7,847 bases of DNA from a virus (IMGVR_UViG_2711768002_000001); one strand, 5' to 3'; shown: positions 1,833-7,739, numbered from the stretch's first letter. Translations and numbers: made by a program. The notes: generated by a model not told the origin, from the sequence alone.

Positions 1833-2615
1833 TTATGCTGCCCTTTTCATTGCGAATGGAACGCGAACAAACACGATCTCTTTATAGCAGCGGCAGTTTG
1901 GCAGCTCGCCCGCGTGGCCGGTCATGCCGTCCAAAGTTGGAGGTGAATCCCAGCGGACGAATTTACCTTTCATGTGATCGTGGGAATCTCGGACATCGCC
2001 ATCATCGGCTGTACGCCAAATATAACCATCCGAGCCAATAGCTATCGCTCGGGCCATATCCAGCGCGCCCGTTGCTCTTCCCAGTTCCGTTCGGGCAATC
2101 AGATCGGCCCTAGACTTAGCAACATCGCCGGTAGATGCAATCTCTTTAGCAAACTGCTCCGCCCGACCACCGGTGACAACAGCCTCTATCGCTTTGTTCT
2201 GGATGTCGTACACCCTGTCTGCGGCCTCGAGAGGCAGAGATTTGATGTACTTGACCTGTTCGGCGATGATGGATTGCATCACCTGGCCCACAGGAGCGCT
2301 TTCCACAAGATTGCGGAGCTCGCGACTGATGTTCTTGCTGTGTTGCCGCCAAACTTTCTCGTTCTGCCGGGTTAGGTCCGCAGTAAAGTTTTCCGCGACC
2401 TTTGTCGCCCAGGGGGTGATGATTTCACTGTAACGCTCCAGCGCCGCAATAATTTCCGTGATACTGTCATTTGAACCATCGTAGCGACCATTTACGATGT
2501 CTCCGACCGCCCTCGCTATCCTGCGTAGGCTGGTTCGATACCGGATTTCCGCCTGACGGCTCCTGCGGTTCGTCATCAGGTTCGCCGATGCCGGGCGGCG
2601 CTTCATCTTCGGCAT
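1833..2615 (-). CDS. Phage head morphogenesis protein, Mu gpF / SPP1 gp7-like (260 aa)
   Basis: Intact ORF with ATG at 2615..2613 and a GAGGA Shine-Dalgarno 8 nt upstream; TAA at 1835..1833. It contains an ADLIARTELGRA-type motif and a basic N-terminus, and lies immediately downstream of the portal as in Mu/SPP1-type head modules. The 5' 149 nt overlap the portal 3' end in another frame. Confidence 0.75.
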   Translation of the reverse strand: MPKMKRRPASANLMTNRRSRQAEIRYRTSLRRIARAVGDIVNGRYDGSNDSITEIIAALERYSEIITPWATKVAENFTADLTRQNEKVWRQHSKNISRELRNLVESAPVGQVMQSIIAEQVKYIKSLPLEAADRVYDIQNKAIEAVVTGGRAEQFAKEIASTGDVAKSRADLIARTELGRATGALDMARAIAIGSDGYIWRTADDGDVRDSHDHMKGKFVRWDSPPTLDGMTGHAGELPNCRCYKEIVFVRVPFAMKRAA

Positions 2616-3549
2616 TCTCGATGTCCTCGTCGGTAATGGATGCCCCGATGCCGGTTACGTCAGAATTTTCTCGCAAATCAGTCATAGCGGCTTTCAGTGT
2701 CATCAGACCATCACCCAGCGCCGTACTGATTGCGTTGGTGGTGTTTAACGCCACCGTTGAGCGATCGACATCAGACATTTGCCAGAGCGGGTTAAACTCA
2801 AACGTGAAATCGTCCGGCAGCGGCTTGCCAAGTTCCGAACGATGCATGATGTCCAGTATCCGCCGCACCGGAAGACGTAAACGCCTCTCCTGCAACGAAC
2901 TGATGCGATCGTAATAGTTGGCAAGGTCTGCATCACCGGTAGAAAATCCTTTCGGGGACTGTCCGAACAACCGCACCAGTGGGATACCAACAGCGCCACT
3001 AATCTGTTCTACAAACTGCGAAAGGATGTCATCCAGACCACTGAAGCTGTACTGATGGGTTTCAAACTTATCCCGCGAGTCCATGAGCGTCATGCCTTCA
3101 TTACTCTGGAACTGTCGAATCAGGTCGATATTCTTCAGCAACGCTTCATACGCAGGACCACCAAGTGCGATAAGCTCGCGTAGCTTCTCCACGCTGTAGG
3201 TACGCAAATGCGCCTTGTAGACCAGCTGCGCCGCGCCGACAGTAGCGCTGTCGAACGCGGTAAGACGATCCCAGATACGCTCTACAACCGACATTCCCCA
3301 TTCGTTCTCGGTCATCTTCTGCTGAAATGGCAACGTGACGCCATCAAAGCGAATCAGGCGACTGTGATGAATGCGCCAGGCAGGAATTCCCGTTGCTGTG
3401 GTCACCACATCGTAAAACTCAGGTTTACCCAGGTCCGGCCCCATATCTTTAATGCGGCGGGTCAGTGCCGGGTCGACCATCCAGCGGTCGAGCGGGAGAA
3501 TCCCCTTAAACTTGCCCTTACCGATGGTTTCGGGTCGCAGCGGGGTCAT
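2467..3549 (-). CDS. Phage portal protein, intact 3' segment (360 codons) downstream of the second in-frame TAG
   Basis: ORF from ATG at 3549..3547 (GAGGGG 9 nt upstream) to TGA at 2469..2467. It has an acidic C-terminal tail (DEDIENAEDEAPPGIGEPDDEPQEP) typical of portals and sits directly after terL. This ATG is in frame with the upstream interrupted portal sequence. Confidence 0.8.
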   Translation of the reverse strand: MTPLRPETIGKGKFKGILPLDRWMVDPALTRRIKDMGPDLGKPEFYDVVTTATGIPAWRIHHSRLIRFDGVTLPFQQKMTENEWGMSVVERIWDRLTAFDSATVGAAQLVYKAHLRTYSVEKLRELIALGGPAYEALLKNIDLIRQFQSNEGMTLMDSRDKFETHQYSFSGLDDILSQFVEQISGAVGIPLVRLFGQSPKGFSTGDADLANYYDRISSLQERRLRLPVRRILDIMHRSELGKPLPDDFTFEFNPLWQMSDVDRSTVALNTTNAISTALGDGLMTLKAAMTDLRENSDVTGIGASITDEDIENAEDEAPPGIGEPDDEPQEPSGGNPVSNQPTQDSEGGRRHRKWSLRWFK

Positions 3550-3933
3550 TGGTGCCTACCCCTCAATCATGATGAAACCCACCGCGCCGCCGTAGAGGCG
3601 CGACCATTTCAGCACGTCATTCAGCGCATCCCAGATTTGCAACTCATCCAGTTGTGATTCGAGAATGCCACGATCTTTTGCATCAATTTCCGAAGTGATG
3701 CGAATGCCTTTGCGGGTCATATCATCCGGGATAGCATCGACTGCTTCGCCGATGATCTAGGATGAACGATAGGACCATTCCACCAGCATGCGGTTACGAC
3801 TGGTGAAATTAGCCCGGTAGGTGGATGCTGAGTGCTGGTTAGGTGTCTGCATCCCTACGCGGGCAATAAAATTCTCATAACCATCAGCTGTGGCCTGCAC
3901 AGTTCGCCGCAGGGCTTGTTTGTTTCGTGCCAT
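2467..3933 (-). pseudogene. Full-length portal reading frame (about 488 codons) interrupted by two in-frame TAG codons
   Basis: Hand translation of the minus strand from ATG 3933..3931 gives MARNKQALRRTVQATADGYENFIARVGMQTPNQHSASTYRANFTSRNRMLVEWSYRSS, then TAG (3759..3757), then IIGEAVDAIPDDMTRKGIRITSEIDAKDRGILESQLDELQIWDALNDVLKWSRLYGGAVGFIMIEG, then TAG (3558..3556), then APMTPLRPET... All are in one frame (3759-3558 = 201 = 67x3). The ATG overlaps the terL TGA (TGATG) and has a GGGGAGA Shine-Dalgarno. Confidence 0.7.
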
Positions 3934-5336
3934 CAGGCCTGTCTCCCCAGCTGTTCCCAGATATCCAGCGATGTATCGATTGGCGCGAAGGCCATAATGA
4001 ATGCATCAGCAACGTTTGGTGACGGTATCTCGCGTTTTGCGAGGTCTTTTTTACTTTCGACCATCACACGTCCGTTACGGTCGAAATCACGATGAGGTGT
4101 TGTCAGTTCCAGTTTCAGCTTTTCAAGCAACGGACAACGAGAATCTATGCTGATCAGCTCATCCACAGGATACTGTTCTCCGTTGTTAATGGCGTTAAAC
4201 GTATTTCTGAAACGGTCAGCCACCAGCCACCATGCCTGAGCCTTAAGATTTGCGAAAAAGTCTTTGTTGGGGATGCCGTTGTACTCGTCATCTGGCTCAT
4301 GCACACCAGCACCGGCGTTAAACCTCTGGTAATTCACACGTCGCGCGTATGCGTTCTCGCTCTTCCGGTCAGCGTTAATTTCAGAGAATTTAGCACCGGC
4401 AGACGCACCAACACCGATAGAGTCGTAAACAATATCTGCTTCACGCTCCAGCGCCGCCTGATAAGTACGCTGGCAGCTCTTCAGTAATTCATCTTCTTTG
4501 GCCTTCCATTCGTCGGCCCAGAAAACAACGGATCCGTGACGGTAAACGTTAGCGCACTTATCTGTACCACTGTCAGCCACGTCAAAGCCAATACGCTTTC
4601 TTCCACTGGGTTCGAAATTTAACGTTTTGTGCGCATCCACTGCGGCTTCTATCCAAGACAGTTTGATGATTGCCGCATCATCATCAGACTCCGGAACGCC
4701 CTCATACACATGTTTAAAACCATCCGGATCACGGCGTCGCGCCGCGTCGATAACCTTAAGCATGGTGTCAGACAGAAACGGATTTTCGTCATAGTTAATT
4801 TTGCGGATGAGAGTGCCTTCGGGCGGATCAACAACGAAGTTGCGCCAGACGAAATCAGTAACAAGTCCGGGGTTGAATATGAACCAGCATTCCGAACCCT
4901 CTTTACGGATCGTTGGCTCCAGAATTTTCCACTGGTATTCCGTCAGTGCGTGGGCTTCTTCCAGCCACAACACATCGATCCCCTCCAGTGACTTAATTTC
5001 TTCGATGTTGCGCCATAATCCATAAAAAACAAATTCCGAGCCAGTAACCCGGTTAATGATTTTGTTGTTCAGAATACGGAAACGGTGCCGCAGACCAAAC
5101 CTGTCTATCTGAATTTTGAGCAGGGTATACACCGACTCTTCGATTTTATTCTGGATCTGACGGGCACAACAAAAACGCAGGGTGTATTTATTCGACAGAA
5201 ATATGGCAATGCCAGCGGCATCCCATGATTTTGACGATGACCGACCACCATAAAGCACTTTGTTACGTGCCCGCATAGTCCAGAAACTACGTAAAGCCGG
5301 ATTCAGCGTCGGTTTGGATGTCAGAGTAGAAGTCAT
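3933..5336 (-). CDS. Terminase large subunit (ATPase/nuclease); start uncertain
   Basis: Long minus-strand ORF with TGA at 3935..3933. Walker A-like VLYGGRSSSKS and Walker B-like IDVLWLEEAH are present. The six-frame ORF extends to a TTG at 5444, but that would overlap terS by 157 nt. In-frame ATGs at 5375, 5363, 5360, 5354 and 5336 are candidate starts. I chose 5336 (about 50-nt overlap with terS) as a compromise. Confidence 0.85.
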   Translation of the reverse strand: MTSTLTSKPTLNPALRSFWTMRARNKVLYGGRSSSKSWDAAGIAIFLSNKYTLRFCCARQIQNKIEESVYTLLKIQIDRFGLRHRFRILNNKIINRVTGSEFVFYGLWRNIEEIKSLEGIDVLWLEEAHALTEYQWKILEPTIRKEGSECWFIFNPGLVTDFVWRNFVVDPPEGTLIRKINYDENPFLSDTMLKVIDAARRRDPDGFKHVYEGVPESDDDAAIIKLSWIEAAVDAHKTLNFEPSGRKRIGFDVADSGTDKCANVYRHGSVVFWADEWKAKEDELLKSCQRTYQAALEREADIVYDSIGVGASAGAKFSEINADRKSENAYARRVNYQRFNAGAGVHEPDDEYNGIPNKDFFANLKAQAWWLVADRFRNTFNAINNGEQYPVDELISIDSRCPLLEKLKLELTTPHRDFDRNGRVMVESKKDLAKREIPSPNVADAFIMAFAPIDTSLDIWEQLGRQA

Positions 5337-6051
5337 TGAGGTCACGCTCTCCATTGCCATCATCAATACCTGCATCACGGCGAAGACGATCAGCCTCCAG
5401 AGACACCTTATCAGTGGCGGCCTTGCGGTAGGCTGTATCAGCAAATATTTTTCCTACCGTCGCAAGCGTGCCAACGATGGACTCAATACGAACTGTATTG
5501 CGCATCATTGCTTTCTCGGCGGCGCTGATATTTTCAATCAGCATCTTCCTTTCCTGGTCCCCATTAGCATCTTCCAGCGACACCAACCACCGACCAATAT
5601 TCTCTGCAGCGACAAGGTTGTTAGCACGAAGGCGAAATAATTCGTCCTCGAGCGTCAACGCTTTAGCGTCCTCTATCACCTCATCTTTGAGCAGAAGGCG
5701 ACGGGCATAACCACCGTGTTTTAATGCCTGCTGGTTACCGGGTTGGAATGGGTTAGTCGGGGGATCGGTACGCATTCCGCGTATCGGTTTCGTATCCGGT
5801 GTAGATTCTGTTTTTAGTTGCGTACTTTTTTGTGTAAGGCCAGTAATGGCAGGCTTTCTGCTGGTACGCACTTTCCTTTTTTGCGTACCATTTTTGCAAA
5901 CCTGCGTACCGCCACTGCGTGCCCAACCAAGCTTTTTGGCCCTCTTCCTGATAGCCCCTTCTGTAACGCCGTATTTCTCGCCTATATCACGGAGGCTAAG
6001 GACTCCGGCCCGGTATGCCGATTCGATGGCCTCCCAGTCCGGTTTTGCCAT
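5287..6051 (-). CDS. Terminase small subunit (254 aa) with N-terminal helix-turn-helix
   Basis: ATG at 6051..6049 with an AGGAAG Shine-Dalgarno about 8 nt upstream; TAG at 5289..5287. The N-terminus (LSLRDIGEKYGVTEGAIRKRAKKLGW) is HTH-like. An NPFQPGNQQALKHGGY motif resembles conserved small-terminase motifs. It lies immediately upstream of terL. Confidence 0.8.
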   Translation of the reverse strand: MAKPDWEAIESAYRAGVLSLRDIGEKYGVTEGAIRKRAKKLGWARSGGTQVCKNGTQKRKVRTSRKPAITGLTQKSTQLKTESTPDTKPIRGMRTDPPTNPFQPGNQQALKHGGYARRLLLKDEVIEDAKALTLEDELFRLRANNLVAAENIGRWLVSLEDANGDQERKMLIENISAAEKAMMRNTVRIESIVGTLATVGKIFADTAYRKAATDKVSLEADRLRRDAGIDDGNGERDLNDFYSDIQTDAESGFT

Positions 6052-6165
6052 GATTATGCTTCCTGTGATTTACTGTTATCGCTGCCTGTCACAATAGGTT
6101 GCTTTAATTCTTCCTCATCACTCACTCCTGCGACGCTCCGTGGCAGGGCCCCCCACAGGAGTACC

Positions 6166-6195
6166 TTGTAAATGTAAGGTGTTTAAGCCTAAATT
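6166..6195 (+). promoter_or_regulatory. Candidate sigma70-type promoter for the moron (-35 TTGTAA, 18-nt spacer, -10 TAAATT)
   Basis: Hexamer match seen by eye in the AT-rich sequence 50-80 nt upstream of the 6249 ATG. Not scored computationally. Confidence 0.2.
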
Positions 6196-6248
6196 AAGTC
6201 GTATCACGGTTAAATAGCAAAGAAAAATTCACAGAAGGAAAGACATTG

Positions 6249-6758
6249 ATGGAGTGGATAAATGCTTTGATGAACTATTTTGTACTTCATCCATATCGCC
6301 TATGGGGGCTTCTTTTTATAATAGCGTTCACAAAATCCACTTTACTCATTTCGGCGATATTGCCACCAGCATCAATTATGATGGCCACTGTAATTACAGT
6401 CAGCAAGACGACTCTTTCACCATGGGAAGCTGGAATCACGGTCATGAGTGGCGCATGGTGCGGTACTATCGTTAATTACCATCTTGGTATAATAATTGGG
6501 CATATCCCTCAACTTGCATGTATAATATCAAGCCGTTCCAATACAATAGAACGGGTTCGCCTTCAGTTGCAAAATAACTCTGTGTCAATACTTTTCACTT
6601 CGCGCTTTATCGCCGTGCTGCGTTATATTGCTCCTTTGGTGGCAGGAATGTTGCAACTTCATCCAGTGAAAGTGTATACAGTGAGTCTGATTTCAGCTGC
6701 TAGCTGGTCAGCACTTTATGTTGGTAGTTTTAGCTTCGTGTTGCCTTTTTTTAGCTAA
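6249..6758 (+). CDS. Small polytopic inner-membrane protein, divergent DedA/YqaA (VTT-domain)-like; moron
   Basis: ATG at 6249 (the ORF track starts at a TTG at 6246) with a GAAGGAAAG Shine-Dalgarno; TAA at 6756..6758. It is the only plus-strand gene and is visibly AT-rich compared with the flanks. There are 4-5 hydrophobic segments. SRFIAVLRYIAPLVAGMLQL resembles the DedA GRFIPxxRxxxPxxAG motif, and NYHLGIIIG resembles the Y-x-LGR motif, but the conserved acidic/basic residues are not obvious. Confidence 0.55.
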   Translation: MEWINALMNYFVLHPYRLWGLLFIIAFTKSTLLISAILPPASIMMATVITVSKTTLSPWEAGITVMSGAWCGTIVNYHLGIIIGHIPQLACIISSRSNTIERVRLQLQNNSVSILFTSRFIAVLRYIAPLVAGMLQLHPVKVYTVSLISAASWSALYVGSFSFVLPFFS

Positions 6759-6846
6759 ACTGCCCATAAAAAGCTCTTGCGAATCCAGCTTCCCCCATTC
6801 CTCTGACAACAGAATCTGATTTGAAGGATAATGAGTAAAATTACCG

Positions 6847-7245
6847 CTACCCCCCAAGGCATTGGATCCTGATGTACTCCTGAAGCATTCTCAATGCTGT
6901 CTGGTCGCTGATGATTCCGTCCCGGATACCGAGAACGTTTCGTCCAGCAACTGGAGAGAGTTCGACGGTGGCATCATTGCCCATGCCGGAGGCGCTGGAG
7001 GTTTCGGCTGAGGATGGCACAGGGCATTTTCCTTTGACGAGCACCCGACCACCATTATCAAGCTTGCGCCGAAGAGCATCATTTTCAGCTTTCGCATCAG
7101 CTAACTCCAGCTTCAGTTCTCTTGCGTTTTTGTCGCGCTGCTCTTTGTAGGTAATGGCGTTATCACGGTAATGATTAACAGCCCATGACAGGCGGACGAT
7201 GATGCAGATAACCAGAGCGGAGATAATCGCGGTGACTCTGCTCAT
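6847..7245 (-). CDS. Rz: Rz-like i-spanin (inner-membrane spanin subunit)
   Basis: ATG at 7245..7243 overlaps the endolysin TGA as ATGA; TAG at 6849..6847. It has an N-terminal TM segment ([18 protein letters not shown]) followed by a charged, coiled-coil-like region ([29 protein letters not shown]). The ORF track's GTG at 7257 is probably an over-extension. Confidence 0.75.
6891..7097 (-). CDS. Rz1: Rz1-like o-spanin (outer-membrane lipoprotein), fully embedded in Rz in another frame
   Basis: ATG at 7097..7095. It has a signal peptide with a lipobox (LIMVVGC followed by SSK) and a proline-rich mature part ([17 protein letters not shown]). It lies entirely inside the Rz coding region, as in lambda Rz/Rz1. 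Confidence 0.7.
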
Positions 7246-7739
7246 TGCTGCCCCCACAAACAGACTTCACGCTCAATCTCACGACGGGTCATCAGCCCTT
7301 TCCATTGCTTACCGCCAGCATATGTCCAGCGACATAGCTGGTCACATGCGCCTTTGATATAGCCCTGGTTTATTTTGCGAAGAAGCGTCGATGTTCTGAA
7401 ATTGCCAGCGCCCACGTTGTAAACGAACGAGTAAAGAGCGCCGCGCGTTGTTTCCGGTATATCGACTTTGATGTACGGGTTAATTTGTCTGGCGACAGTG
7501 GCAAGGTCTTTATTCAGGAGAGCTTTGCATTCTGCTTCGGTATACGTTTTACCAGGCATGATGTCTTTTCCGGTGTGTCCGTGACATACAGTCCATACAC
7601 CAATGATATCTTTGTATAGTATGTAGCTGACACCTTCCAGACCATCGTTACCACCTGGGCCAGTGATTAACACAGATGCTATAGCAACAGCCCCGCCACC
7701 AATAGCAACTGCAACAGCCTTGCGTAATGATGGCGACAT
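7242..7739 (-). CDS. SAR (signal-anchor-release) endolysin, T4-lysozyme-like muramidase; phage 21 R-like
   Basis: ATG at 7739..7737 with a GAGAGGTGA Shine-Dalgarno; TGA at 7244..7242. The N-terminus has a Gly/Ala-rich weakly hydrophobic SAR segment ([23 protein letters not shown]). This is followed by a catalytic E-x8-D-x5-T arrangement ([16 protein letters not shown]). It is 165 aa and followed by Rz/Rz1. Confidence 0.9.

What the first reader, a model, noticed from the sequence alone, without database searches (positions are those of the whole stretch)
6166..6846. AT-rich, opposite-strand membrane-protein moron (divergent DedA/YqaA-like) inserted between lysis cassette and terminase
This is the only gene not on the late-operon strand, and its composition is visibly more AT-rich than its flanks. 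It has its own candidate promoter and a strong RBS. The product is a small polytopic membrane protein with DedA/VTT-like motifs but lacking obvious conserved charged residues. This lysis/terminase junction is a classic moron site in lambdoid phages (for example bor in lambda). Lysogenic-conversion functions such as superinfection exclusion, envelope modification or membrane stress tolerance are plausible. The function is unknown from sequence alone.
Basis: partly seen in the sequence, partly recalled or inferred. Interest (0 to 1): 0.5.

Follow-up and report, generated by a model that had tools for sequence, protein, structure and literature searches.

The report
Phage-borne short DedA membrane-protein cargo gene
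A decaying Shigella/E. coli prophage carries, between its lysis and DNA-packaging genes, an AT-rich backwards-facing cargo gene for an unusual short DedA-family membrane protein that was copied from a stress-induced chromosomal gene of other enterobacteria; it is a real and mildly unusual lysogenic-conversion candidate, not a new kind of system.

Summary
A 169-aa ORF (6249-6758, + strand) is the only plus-strand gene in a minus-strand late operon. Its GC is 41.8% (GC3 38%) against about 52% for the flanks. It passes the Pfam VTT/DedA gathering threshold.

It is DedA-like of the COG0586 type (YabI/YqjA/DedA), not YqaA-like. It belongs to a compact subfamily of 163-180-aa "core-only" DedA proteins. 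This subfamily keeps the two arginines (YqjA R130/R136) but has an invariant lysine where YqjA has the essential Glu39, lacks Asp51, and lacks the C-terminal helix.

Subfamily members are chromosomal in Enterobacter, Lelliottia, Kosakonia, Citrobacter, Morganella and Arsenophonus. They often sit next to mgtE. In Enterobacter they lie behind two strong PhoP boxes, and published RNA-seq shows about 23-fold induction when PhoPQ is de-repressed.

A roughly 600-bp cassette (6174-6769) carrying the gene and its promoter region sits at the lysis/terminase junction of two unrelated lambdoid prophages, this one and one in Citrobacter youngae. In this window the PhoP box is degraded. The gene is under purifying selection (dN/dS 0.15-0.23) and stays intact while the prophage decays.

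Most likely function is lipid or lipid-carrier translocation for envelope homeostasis without the usual proton-coupling residues. That function is inferred, not shown.

The parts
6174..6769 (+). Mobile cassette: the DedA gene plus 75 bp upstream and about 10 bp downstream
   Evidence: blastn homology to the C. youngae prophage copy spans window 6174-6768 (82%). Homology to the C. meridianamericanus chromosomal copy spans 6179-6769 (77%). There is no homology beyond these limits.
6249..6758 (+). CDS for a 169-aa short DedA/VTT-family inner-membrane protein (PGAP starts it at TTG 6246)
   Evidence: PF09335, E = 9e-14, 52.4 bits against 33.9. AF2 model has pLDDT 78.9 with helices 2-13, 15-30, 32-35, 41-52, 58-84, 87-95, 97-109, 111-118, 124-134 and 139-168. 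dN/dS is 0.15-0.23.
6235..6239 (+). Shine-Dalgarno AAGGA, 9 nt before ATG 6249
   Evidence: Read directly from the sequence. AGGAG-type sites sit at the same place in homologues.
6210..6215 (+). Conserved -10-like hexamer TTAAAT
   Evidence: Invariant block TTAAAT in the window, C. youngae, C. meridianamericanus and C. amalonaticus. Present as TTAAAT or TCTAAT at the same distance in Enterobacter and Lelliottia.
6180..6198 (+). Degraded remnant of a PhoP box (TGTTTA-AGCCT-AAATTA), 13 nt upstream of TTAAAT
   Evidence: A PWM built from 26 footprinted Salmonella PhoP boxes scores this site 5.8 bits. The homologous site scores 13.8 bits in the C. youngae prophage, 12.1 and 10.6 bits in the other Citrobacter copies, and 16-19 bits in Enterobacter and Lelliottia. 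The window copy has a 1-nt insertion and G>A changes.
6166..6195 (+).
   Evidence: Matches 8 of 12 consensus positions and was not reported by the scan. The -35 lies outside the conserved cassette. Function untested.
6059..6173 (.). Spacer of unknown origin between the terS-like gene start and the cassette
   Evidence: Homology of the terS module to a related prophage ends at 6058. The stretch has no match other than the 5 near-identical full-length E. coli/Shigella-type copies.
6770..6802 (.). Short spacer between the cassette and the shared lambdoid Rz-downstream sequence
   Evidence: Homology to common lambdoid lysis regions starts at 6803.
6755..6862 (-). Truncated and altered small hydrophobic ORF that follows Rz in O157-type prophages
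   Evidence: The window [21 protein letters not shown]... compares with O157 MPSMIAIILLIILHIWLC.... Similarity is lost upstream of 6803, where the cassette region begins.
6847..7245 (-). Rz spanin gene (with Rz1 at 6891-7097 embedded), convergent with the DedA gene
   Evidence: Pfam Phage_lysis and Rz1.
5287..6051 (-). terS-position gene (no Pfam hit), divergent from the DedA gene, followed by the Terminase_3 large subunit

Best explanation
Window 6174-6769 is a roughly 600-bp horizontally acquired cargo cassette inserted between the spanin genes and the terminase genes of a now-defective lambdoid prophage. It is transcribed against the late operon.

It encodes a minimal 'core-only' DedA-family inner-membrane protein of the COG0586 lineage. 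The predicted layout is three transmembrane helices plus two re-entrant hairpins, with no C-terminal helix.

The gene was captured from a chromosomal gene family of Enterobacterales. In Enterobacter that family sits next to mgtE, behind PhoP boxes, and is strongly induced when PhoPQ is active.

The protein keeps the two arginines thought to bind the phosphate head group of undecaprenyl phosphate or phospholipids. It has replaced the proton-binding Glu/Asp pair with Lys/Ala.

The most likely action is therefore translocation of a phosphate-bearing lipid or lipid carrier across the inner membrane without the canonical proton coupling. In the lysogen this would support envelope remodelling under low-Mg2+ or cationic-peptide stress.

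Shown here: gene, family, subfamily signature, origin, mobility, purifying selection, and regulation of the Enterobacter orthologue.

Inferred: the substrate, the uncoupled mechanism, expression in Shigella, and any benefit to the host.
For: Family: PF09335 above the gathering threshold. The subfamily profile scores 58-61 bits on E. coli YabI, DedA and YqjA, against 12 bits or less on YdjX, YqaA and YdjZ. The next-nearest relatives are DedA-PAP2 fusions.

Signature: K29 occurs in 30/30 subfamily members, where 128/131 of the nearest other DedA proteins have Glu. R119 and R125 are conserved. P40-A41 replaces G50-D51. The protein ends before the C-terminal helix.

Literature: E39, D51, R130 and R136 are required in YqjA/YghB. 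The arginines are thought to bind the UndP phosphate and the acids to bind protons (PMC6849406; PMC10127716).

Structure: the AF2 model (pLDDT 78.9) shows the helix pattern of the core DedA domain.

Origin and mobility: 73 genomic loci were found, chromosomal in Enterobacter, Lelliottia, Kosakonia, Citrobacter, Morganella and Arsenophonus. The copy is phage-borne here and in a different lambdoid backbone in C. youngae, at the same junction and on the opposite strand. Cassette borders are shared. The phage copies nest in the Citrobacter/Kosakonia clade.

Regulation: Enterobacter loci have two 16-19-bit PhoP boxes, the proximal one 12 nt upstream of TTAAAT. This matches architecture II of Zwir 2012. 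The mgtE-dedA-SDR trio is up 19.6-, 23.1- and 3.1-fold in an mgrB-deleted E. hormaechei (PMC10434160 supplement). The same gene order is seen.

Selection and retention: dN/dS is 0.15-0.23. The exact protein occurs on at least 1000 contigs, mostly S. flexneri. The gene is intact although the portal gene has two stop codons. It is also intact in a strain where the whole morphogenesis module is deleted.
Against: - No experiment addresses this protein or its subfamily.
- Glu39 is essential in the characterised relatives, so a Lys there could mean a different activity or a different substrate rather than uncoupled flipping.
- The PhoP box is degraded in this copy (5.8 bits). No convincing sigma-70 promoter or terminator was found.
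- The AT-rich gene may be silenced in Shigella.
- The prophage is decaying, so retention could be recent history rather than selection.
- The re-entrant geometry of the model could not be checked against a structural library. There is no PDB match and afdb50 was unavailable.
- The equation of the RNA-seq locus with the orthologue rests on synteny, not on sequence.
Confidence: 0.55

Rival explanations
1. Silent hitch-hiker. The cassette is real but has no role in Shigella. It is an unexpressed remnant riding in a decaying prophage.
For: The prophage is defective: the portal gene has two in-frame stops, Rz has a 72-bp deletion relative to L001 and relatives carry IS elements. The PhoP box is degraded to 5.8 bits. 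No scan-level promoter or terminator was found. AT-rich foreign DNA is typically H-NS-silenced (general knowledge).
Against: The ORF is intact and identical on at least 1000 contigs. dN/dS is 0.15-0.23, including on the window branch. The gene is retained, with IS911 47 bp upstream, when all structural genes are deleted. The -10 element and RBS are conserved.
Confidence: 0.2
2. Divalent-cation (Mg2+) homeostasis factor that works with, or like, MgtE, rather than a lipid translocase.
For: mgtE is adjacent in Enterobacter, Lelliottia and Huaxiibacter (divergent orientation) and in Arsenophonus (tandem). The two genes are co-induced about 20-fold. DedA mutants in Xanthomonas and Klebsiella show Mg2+/Ca2+-related phenotypes (PMC10470534 and PMC10846249).
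Against: The conserved intramembrane residues are all cationic (K29, R119, R125), which suits cation binding poorly. The phage cassette moved without mgtE. The Kosakonia, Citrobacter and Morganella copies are not linked to mgtE. The cation phenotypes of DedA mutants are generally read as indirect membrane effects.
Confidence: 0.12
3. Modulator of host DedA proteins. The truncated, acid-less subunit heterodimerises with YqjA, YghB or others and alters or poisons their activity.
For: YqjA is dimeric, with the re-entrant hairpins and the charged residues at the interface. The C-terminal helix has been implicated in oligomerisation (bioRxiv 10.64898/2026.09.20.752871). This protein lacks that helix and the acidic pair.
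Against: The same features are invariant in chromosomal orthologues under purifying selection. These include copies in Arsenophonus symbiont genomes below 1 Mb, which argues for an autonomous function.
Confidence: 0.08
4. Superinfection-exclusion or anti-phage membrane protein.
For: It occupies a classical moron position and is a membrane protein expressed independently of the late operon.
Against: There is no PADLOC match. The family is chromosomal in many genera, mostly outside prophages. DedA homologues are almost absent from 50,697 phage records.
Confidence: 0.05

Closest known systems
E. coli COG0586 DedA proteins (YqjA, YghB, YabI, DedA) and UptA/PopT-type undecaprenyl-phosphate flippases
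   Same: VTT/DedA domain. The best profile scores are to YabI, DedA and YqjA. The F-x3-R-F-x5-R-x3-P-x3-G motif with both arginines is conserved. The predicted core has two re-entrant hairpins plus transmembrane helices.
   Different: About 50 residues shorter, with no C-terminal helix. Lys replaces the essential Glu39, and Pro-Ala replaces Gly-Asp51. Full-length NCBIfam equivalog models are far below cut-off: 31 bits against 236 for PRK10847 and 20 against 250 for UptA.
Lambda bor and other lambdoid 'morons' at the Rz/terminase junction
   Same: A single cargo gene between the spanin genes and the packaging genes, on the strand opposite to late transcription. Its composition differs from the flanks, and it is present or absent among related phages. 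The position and orientation of bor are from general knowledge.
   Different: Bor is an outer-membrane lipoprotein for serum resistance, whereas this is a polytopic inner-membrane DedA protein. No terminator of its own was detected.
Enterobacter mgtE-adjacent DedA family gene (N5F16_08430 in E. hormaechei 4236)
   Same: Same subfamily by synteny and signature, about 50% identical. The promoter region is homologous, with a box 12 nt upstream of TTAAAT.
   Different: It is chromosomal, has two strong PhoP boxes and is 23-fold PhoPQ-induced. The window copy is phage-borne, AT-richer and has a degraded box.
COG1238 YqaA-type and COG0398 YdjX/YdjZ/TMEM41B-type DedA proteins
   Same: Same superfamily. 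YqaA is also short (142 aa). COG0398 also lacks the acidic pair (PMC10127716).
   Different: Profile scores are only 8.4 bits (YqaA), 11.8 bits (YdjX) and -1.2 bits (YdjZ). COG1238 lacks the arginines and keeps the acids, which is the opposite pattern. COG0398 lacks one or both arginines.

Membership tests
DedA / VTT superfamily (Pfam PF09335) | Significant match to the VTT domain HMM above the curated threshold | tested here: met
   52.4 bits against a gathering threshold of 33.9, E = 9e-14, covering model positions 3-121 of 123.
DedA / VTT superfamily (Pfam PF09335) | Core fold of transmembrane helices plus two facing re-entrant hairpins | tested here: inconclusive
   The AF2 model (pLDDT 78.9, pTM 0.73) has helix breaks at 36-40 (LPPAS tip) and 119-123 (R119 tip), as expected. 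No structural library could confirm it. The PDB holds no DedA-like match, BFVD gives only a weak giant-virus hit and afdb50 was unavailable.
COG0586 DedA subfamily (putative PMF-driven UndP flippases) | Two conserved arginines at the tip of re-entrant helix 2 (YqjA R130, R136) | tested here: met
   R119 and R125 align with R130 and R136. Within the subfamily, R119 is Arg in 28/30 (Lys in 2) and R125 is Arg in 30/30.
COG0586 DedA subfamily (putative PMF-driven UndP flippases) | Two conserved acidic residues in re-entrant helix 1 (YqjA E39, D51) | tested here: not met
   E39 is replaced by K29, which is invariant in 30/30 subfamily members, whereas 128/131 of the nearest other DedA proteins have Glu. 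D51 is replaced by A41.
COG0586 DedA subfamily (putative PMF-driven UndP flippases) | Closest sequence similarity is to COG0586 members | tested here: met
   YabI 60.6, DedA 58.4 and YqjA 57.8 bits, against 12 bits or less for COG0398 and COG1238 members.
COG0586 DedA subfamily (putative PMF-driven UndP flippases) | Undecaprenyl-phosphate binding or flipping activity | not testable with these tools
   Needs native mass spectrometry or complementation and amphomycin-sensitivity assays.
COG1238 YqaA-type DedA | Acidic residues kept, arginines absent, sequence similarity to YqaA | tested here: not met
   The residue pattern is the opposite. Only 8.4 bits to E. coli YqaA.
Phage moron (lysogenic-conversion cargo gene) | Inserted between genes that are adjacent in related phages, and variably present | tested here: met
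   Related terS and lysis modules lack it and carry other small ORFs. Only 6 of 5426 complete E. coli genomes have it. The cassette borders are defined.
Phage moron (lysogenic-conversion cargo gene) | Nucleotide composition distinct from the flanking phage genes | tested here: met
   GC 0.418 and GC3 0.382, against 0.49-0.55 and 0.46-0.61; z = -4.
Phage moron (lysogenic-conversion cargo gene) | Autonomous transcription unit with its own promoter and terminator | tested here: inconclusive
   A conserved -10-like TTAAAT and an RBS are present. No promoter reached the scan threshold and no terminator was found.
Phage moron (lysogenic-conversion cargo gene) | Expressed in the lysogen and confers a host phenotype | not testable with these tools
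   Needs RNA-seq and phenotype tests.
PhoP regulon (architecture I/II promoter) | PhoP box in direct orientation about 12 nt upstream of the -10 hexamer | tested here: inconclusive
   The window site scores 5.8 bits and lies 13 nt from TTAAAT, which is within chance level on its own. The homologous site scores 10.6-13.8 bits in the Citrobacter and C. youngae phage copies and 16-19 bits (two boxes) in Enterobacter and Lelliottia. The architecture definition comes from PMC3335776.

The most novel reading that the evidence does not exclude
The Lys29 'core-only' DedA proteins would be a distinct functional class: PhoPQ-controlled, proton-independent translocases for a polyprenyl-phosphate or another anionic lipid. 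Temperate phages would have repeatedly picked this class up as a lysogenic-conversion factor that strengthens the envelope of pathogens such as Shigella flexneri against low Mg2+ and host cationic peptides.
Probability: 0.2. Interest if true: 0.6.

Novelty: new variant of a known kind. Interest (0 to 1): 0.42.

Why it matters
DedA proteins are currently being recast as lipid and undecaprenyl-phosphate flippases and as determinants of polymyxin resistance. Their mechanism is argued from four charged residues.

This subfamily is a natural, conserved variant in which the supposedly essential glutamate is reversed to lysine while the arginines stay. It is small (a minimal core domain), strongly PhoPQ-induced in Enterobacter, retained in tiny symbiont genomes, and mobilised by phages into Shigella.

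It therefore offers a compact test case for what the acidic pair really does. It also provides a rare example of a phage carrying a DedA gene into a pathogen. If inert in Shigella, it is simply one more annotated prophage cargo gene.

Tried and rejected
- The first AF2 run with 19 sequences gave pLDDT 58 and was discarded. A 47-sequence alignment gave a usable model.
- Foldseek against the PDB found nothing and BFVD gave only a weak giant-virus hit. afdb50 was not available. A PDB sequence search gave only a spurious hit.
- Megablast of the region against 50,697 phage records found nothing. tblastn found 9 weak records, several looking like bacterial contigs.
- PADLOC found no match and Rfam found no RNA family anywhere in the window.
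- A search for target-site duplications or terminal inverted repeats around the cassette gave only short chance-level repeats, so no transposition signature was seen.
- No terminator lies downstream.
- The YqaA-like idea was rejected.
- Literature searches found no paper on the Shigella gene.
- It could not be established whether the 'dedA(Ecl)' required for colistin heteroresistance (Huang 2019, cited in PMC7771540) is this subfamily.

Full report
**What is there**

The window is the late region of a lambdoid prophage read on the minus strand. It holds lysozyme (7242-7739), Rz (6847-7245) with embedded Rz1 (6891-7097), a terS-position gene (5287-6051), a Terminase_3 large subunit, a DUF1073 portal and head genes.

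Between Rz and the terS-position gene lies one plus-strand ORF from 6249 to 6758, 169 aa. PGAP starts it at TTG 6246. ATG 6249 is the start conserved in all homologues. An AAGGA ribosome-binding site sits 9 nt upstream.

Composition is clearly different. The gene has GC 0.418 and GC3 0.382, against GC3 0.46-0.61 for its neighbours. The lowest-GC 510-bp stretch of the whole window starts at 6169. The gene lies 4 sd below the rest.

**Family**

The protein matches the Pfam VTT/DedA domain above the gathering threshold (52.4 bits against 33.9). RefSeq annotates it as 'DedA family protein' WP_011069285.1. The full-length NCBIfam equivalogs for DedA and UptA match only weakly. A PHROG of unknown function matches at 3e-7.

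A profile of the protein's own subfamily scores 58-61 bits on E. coli YabI, DedA and YqjA. It scores 11.8, 8.4 and -1.2 bits on YdjX, YqaA and YdjZ. It therefore belongs with the COG0586 lineage and is not YqaA-like. The nearest proteins outside the subfamily are DedA-PAP2 fusions. Todor et al. use that fusion type to link COG0586 to undecaprenyl-phosphate recycling (PMC10127716).

**A distinct short subfamily**

Homologues of 163-180 aa form a tight group. Only 12 representatives score below 1e-30, followed by a gap to about 1e-20.

Aligned with YqjA, DedA and YabI, the protein ends before the C-terminal helix. R119 and R125 align with YqjA R130 and R136. K29 aligns with the essential E39, and P40-A41 aligns with G50-D51.

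Across the sampled proteins, K29 is invariant in 30/30 subfamily members. Of the nearest other DedA proteins, 128/131 have Glu at that position. The Asp51 position is variable in those outgroups, so the Glu-to-Lys reversal is the real signature.

E39, D51, R130 and R136 are reported as required for YqjA/YghB function (PMC6849406). [quoted passage not shown] Todor et al. read the acids as proton binders and the arginines as phosphate binders. They describe three residue patterns: acids plus bases, neither, and acids only. This subfamily shows the fourth pattern, bases only.

An AlphaFold model built with a 47-sequence alignment has pLDDT 78.9 and pTM 0.73. Its helix pattern fits a core DedA domain, with breaks at the LPPAS and R119 tips. 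No structural library could confirm the fold.

**Origin and mobility**

A genome scan found 73 loci.
- In Enterobacter, Lelliottia and Huaxiibacter the gene lies divergently next to mgtE and upstream of an SDR gene.
- In several Arsenophonus it lies just upstream of mgtE.
- In Morganella, Kosakonia and two Citrobacter species it has other chromosomal neighbours.
- It is present even in Arsenophonus symbiont genomes of 0.85-0.94 Mb.

Only two contexts are phage-borne. One is this prophage, found in S. flexneri and a few E. coli (6 of 5426 complete E. coli genomes). The other is a C. youngae prophage with a different backbone: GpA-type terminase, DUF1441, a GH19-like endolysin and different holins. 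There the 78%-identical gene again sits between lysis and terminase genes on the opposite strand.

DNA similarity to both the C. youngae phage copy and the C. meridianamericanus chromosomal copy runs from about 6174-6179 to 6768-6769 and then stops. This defines a cassette of gene plus 75 bp of upstream sequence. The neighbouring 6059-6173 and 6770-6802 are unmatched. Similarity to common lambdoid Rz-downstream sequence resumes at 6803. There the cassette region has replaced the 3' part of a small hydrophobic ORF found in O157 prophages.

No target-site duplication or terminal repeats were seen. In a neighbour-joining tree the phage copies nest inside the Citrobacter/Kosakonia clade, with the window copy on the longest branch.

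**Regulation**

The 75-bp upstream block is conserved well beyond the close relatives. The pattern is [T/C]GTT[G/T]A-N5-[T/G]ATT[T/G]A-N12-TTAAAT. This matches the PhoP box, (T/G)GTTTA-N5-(T/G)GTTTA, placed 12 nt upstream of the -10 hexamer. That is architecture I/II of Zwir et al. 2012 (PMC3335776).

A weight matrix built from their 26 footprinted activation boxes has leave-one-out scores of 4.4-21.4, median about 14.5. It gives the following scores.

| Locus | PhoP-box score |
|---|---|
| Enterobacter and Lelliottia | two sites of 16-19 bits, at -67 and -104 from the ATG |
| C. youngae prophage cassette | 13.8 bits |
| C. amalonaticus | 12.1 bits |
| C. meridianamericanus | 10.6 bits |
| This window | 5.8 bits |

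In the window a 1-nt insertion and G>A changes have damaged the second half-site.

Independent experimental support comes from published RNA-seq. In E. hormaechei with an mgrB deletion (PhoPQ de-repressed), the consecutive genes for MgtE, a DedA family protein and an SDR oxidoreductase are up 19.6-, 23.1- and 3.1-fold (PMC10434160 supplement). This is the gene order of the subfamily locus in Enterobacter.

The chromosomal ancestor is thus very probably a PhoPQ regulon member. For the window copy, PhoP control is doubtful. No terminator follows the gene.

**Selection and retention**

dN/dS between the window gene and its relatives is 0.15-0.23, against 0.11-0.25 among the relatives themselves. 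The exact protein occurs on at least 1000 contigs, mostly S. flexneri.

Meanwhile the prophage is decaying.
- The portal gene here has two in-frame stop codons.
- Rz carries a 72-bp in-frame deletion relative to the E. coli FDAARGOS_943 copy.
- That copy has IS2 in terL and an internal stop in the head-morphogenesis gene.
- In E. coli VL7S7 the whole terS-to-baseplate module is gone and IS911 sits 47 bp upstream of the intact DedA gene.

**Mechanism and rivals**

The best-supported reading is a lysogenic-conversion cargo gene encoding a minimal DedA protein. It would handle a phosphate-bearing lipid or lipid carrier, because the arginine pair is kept and the nearest relatives are PAP2 fusions. 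It would do so without the canonical proton-coupling pair. Its ancestral role would lie in the PhoPQ envelope-stress and low-Mg2+ response. The substrate, the uncoupled mode and any benefit in Shigella are inferences.

Rivals are the following.
- An unexpressed hitch-hiker.
- A role in Mg2+ homeostasis. The mgtE linkage and the literature on DedA mutants support this. An all-cationic intramembrane site argues against direct cation transport.
- A modulator of host DedA dimers. Conservation of the same features in chromosomal and symbiont copies argues against this.
- Superinfection exclusion, which has no support.

**Novelty**

The gene is already annotated as DedA family, and moron insertion at this junction is classical. 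Three points appear undescribed in the literature I could search.
- The short Lys-for-Glu subfamily.
- Its mgtE/PhoPQ association.
- Its capture at the same junction by two different phages.

I rate it a new variant of a known kind, of moderate interest.

Noticed in passing
window 2467-3933 (- strand): The DUF1073 portal gene has two in-frame premature stop codons (at 3757-3759 and 3556-3558), so this prophage copy cannot make particles. The same gene is annotated intact in E. coli FDAARGOS_943.
   Followed up: partly
window about 7100 (- strand, Rz 6847-7245): Rz lacks 72 bp (24 codons, in frame) relative to the L001 copy. The deletion lies just upstream of the embedded Rz1 start and may affect spanin function.
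   Followed up: partly
L026-L057 (about 4600-6000) and L058-L062 (about 7000-8200): The short DedA gene is adjacent to the Mg2+ channel gene mgtE in two families, in different orientations: divergent in Enterobacter, Lelliottia and Huaxiibacter, and tandem in Arsenophonus. The Enterobacter intergenic region holds two near-consensus PhoP boxes.
   Followed up: partly
L065, L079, L084-L087 (Arsenophonus symbionts, genomes of 0.85-0.94 Mb): The subfamily gene is retained in strongly reduced endosymbiont genomes, which hints at a housekeeping role. Whether it is their only DedA gene could not be checked.
   Followed up: no
L093 3492-3545 (E. coli VL7S7), equivalent to window about 6202: IS911 abuts the DedA gene 47 bp upstream of the ATG, in the same orientation. 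It removes the PhoP-box remnant but keeps TTAAAT. All morphogenesis genes are deleted but the DedA gene is intact.
   Followed up: partly
L004 6311-9005 (C. youngae prophage): The lysis/terminase junction of this unrelated prophage holds several further cargo ORFs besides the DedA gene: DUF6694, and unknown proteins of 119, 161 and 89 aa, on both strands.
   Followed up: no
L021, L023, L025 about 5870-6000 (Kosakonia and a soil MAG): These close orthologues (72-73% identity) have a different upstream region without the PhoP-box/TTAAAT block. The regulatory region has therefore been swapped within the clade.
   Followed up: no
L007/L008 7584-7826 (C. meridianamericanus): The chromosomal copy sits directly downstream of a dinI-like gene, a common prophage-border gene. 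This locus may itself be a prophage remnant.
   Followed up: no
window 6424-6437 and 6781-6794: A 14-nt inverted repeat (93% complementary) pairs a site inside the DedA gene with one in the downstream spacer. It is probably chance.
   Followed up: no
window 6120-6165: A G+C-rich stretch with a 7-nt inverted repeat (ACTCCTG...CAGGAGT) lies in the unmatched spacer upstream of the terS-position gene. Its origin and role (perhaps packaging-related) are unknown.
   Followed up: no
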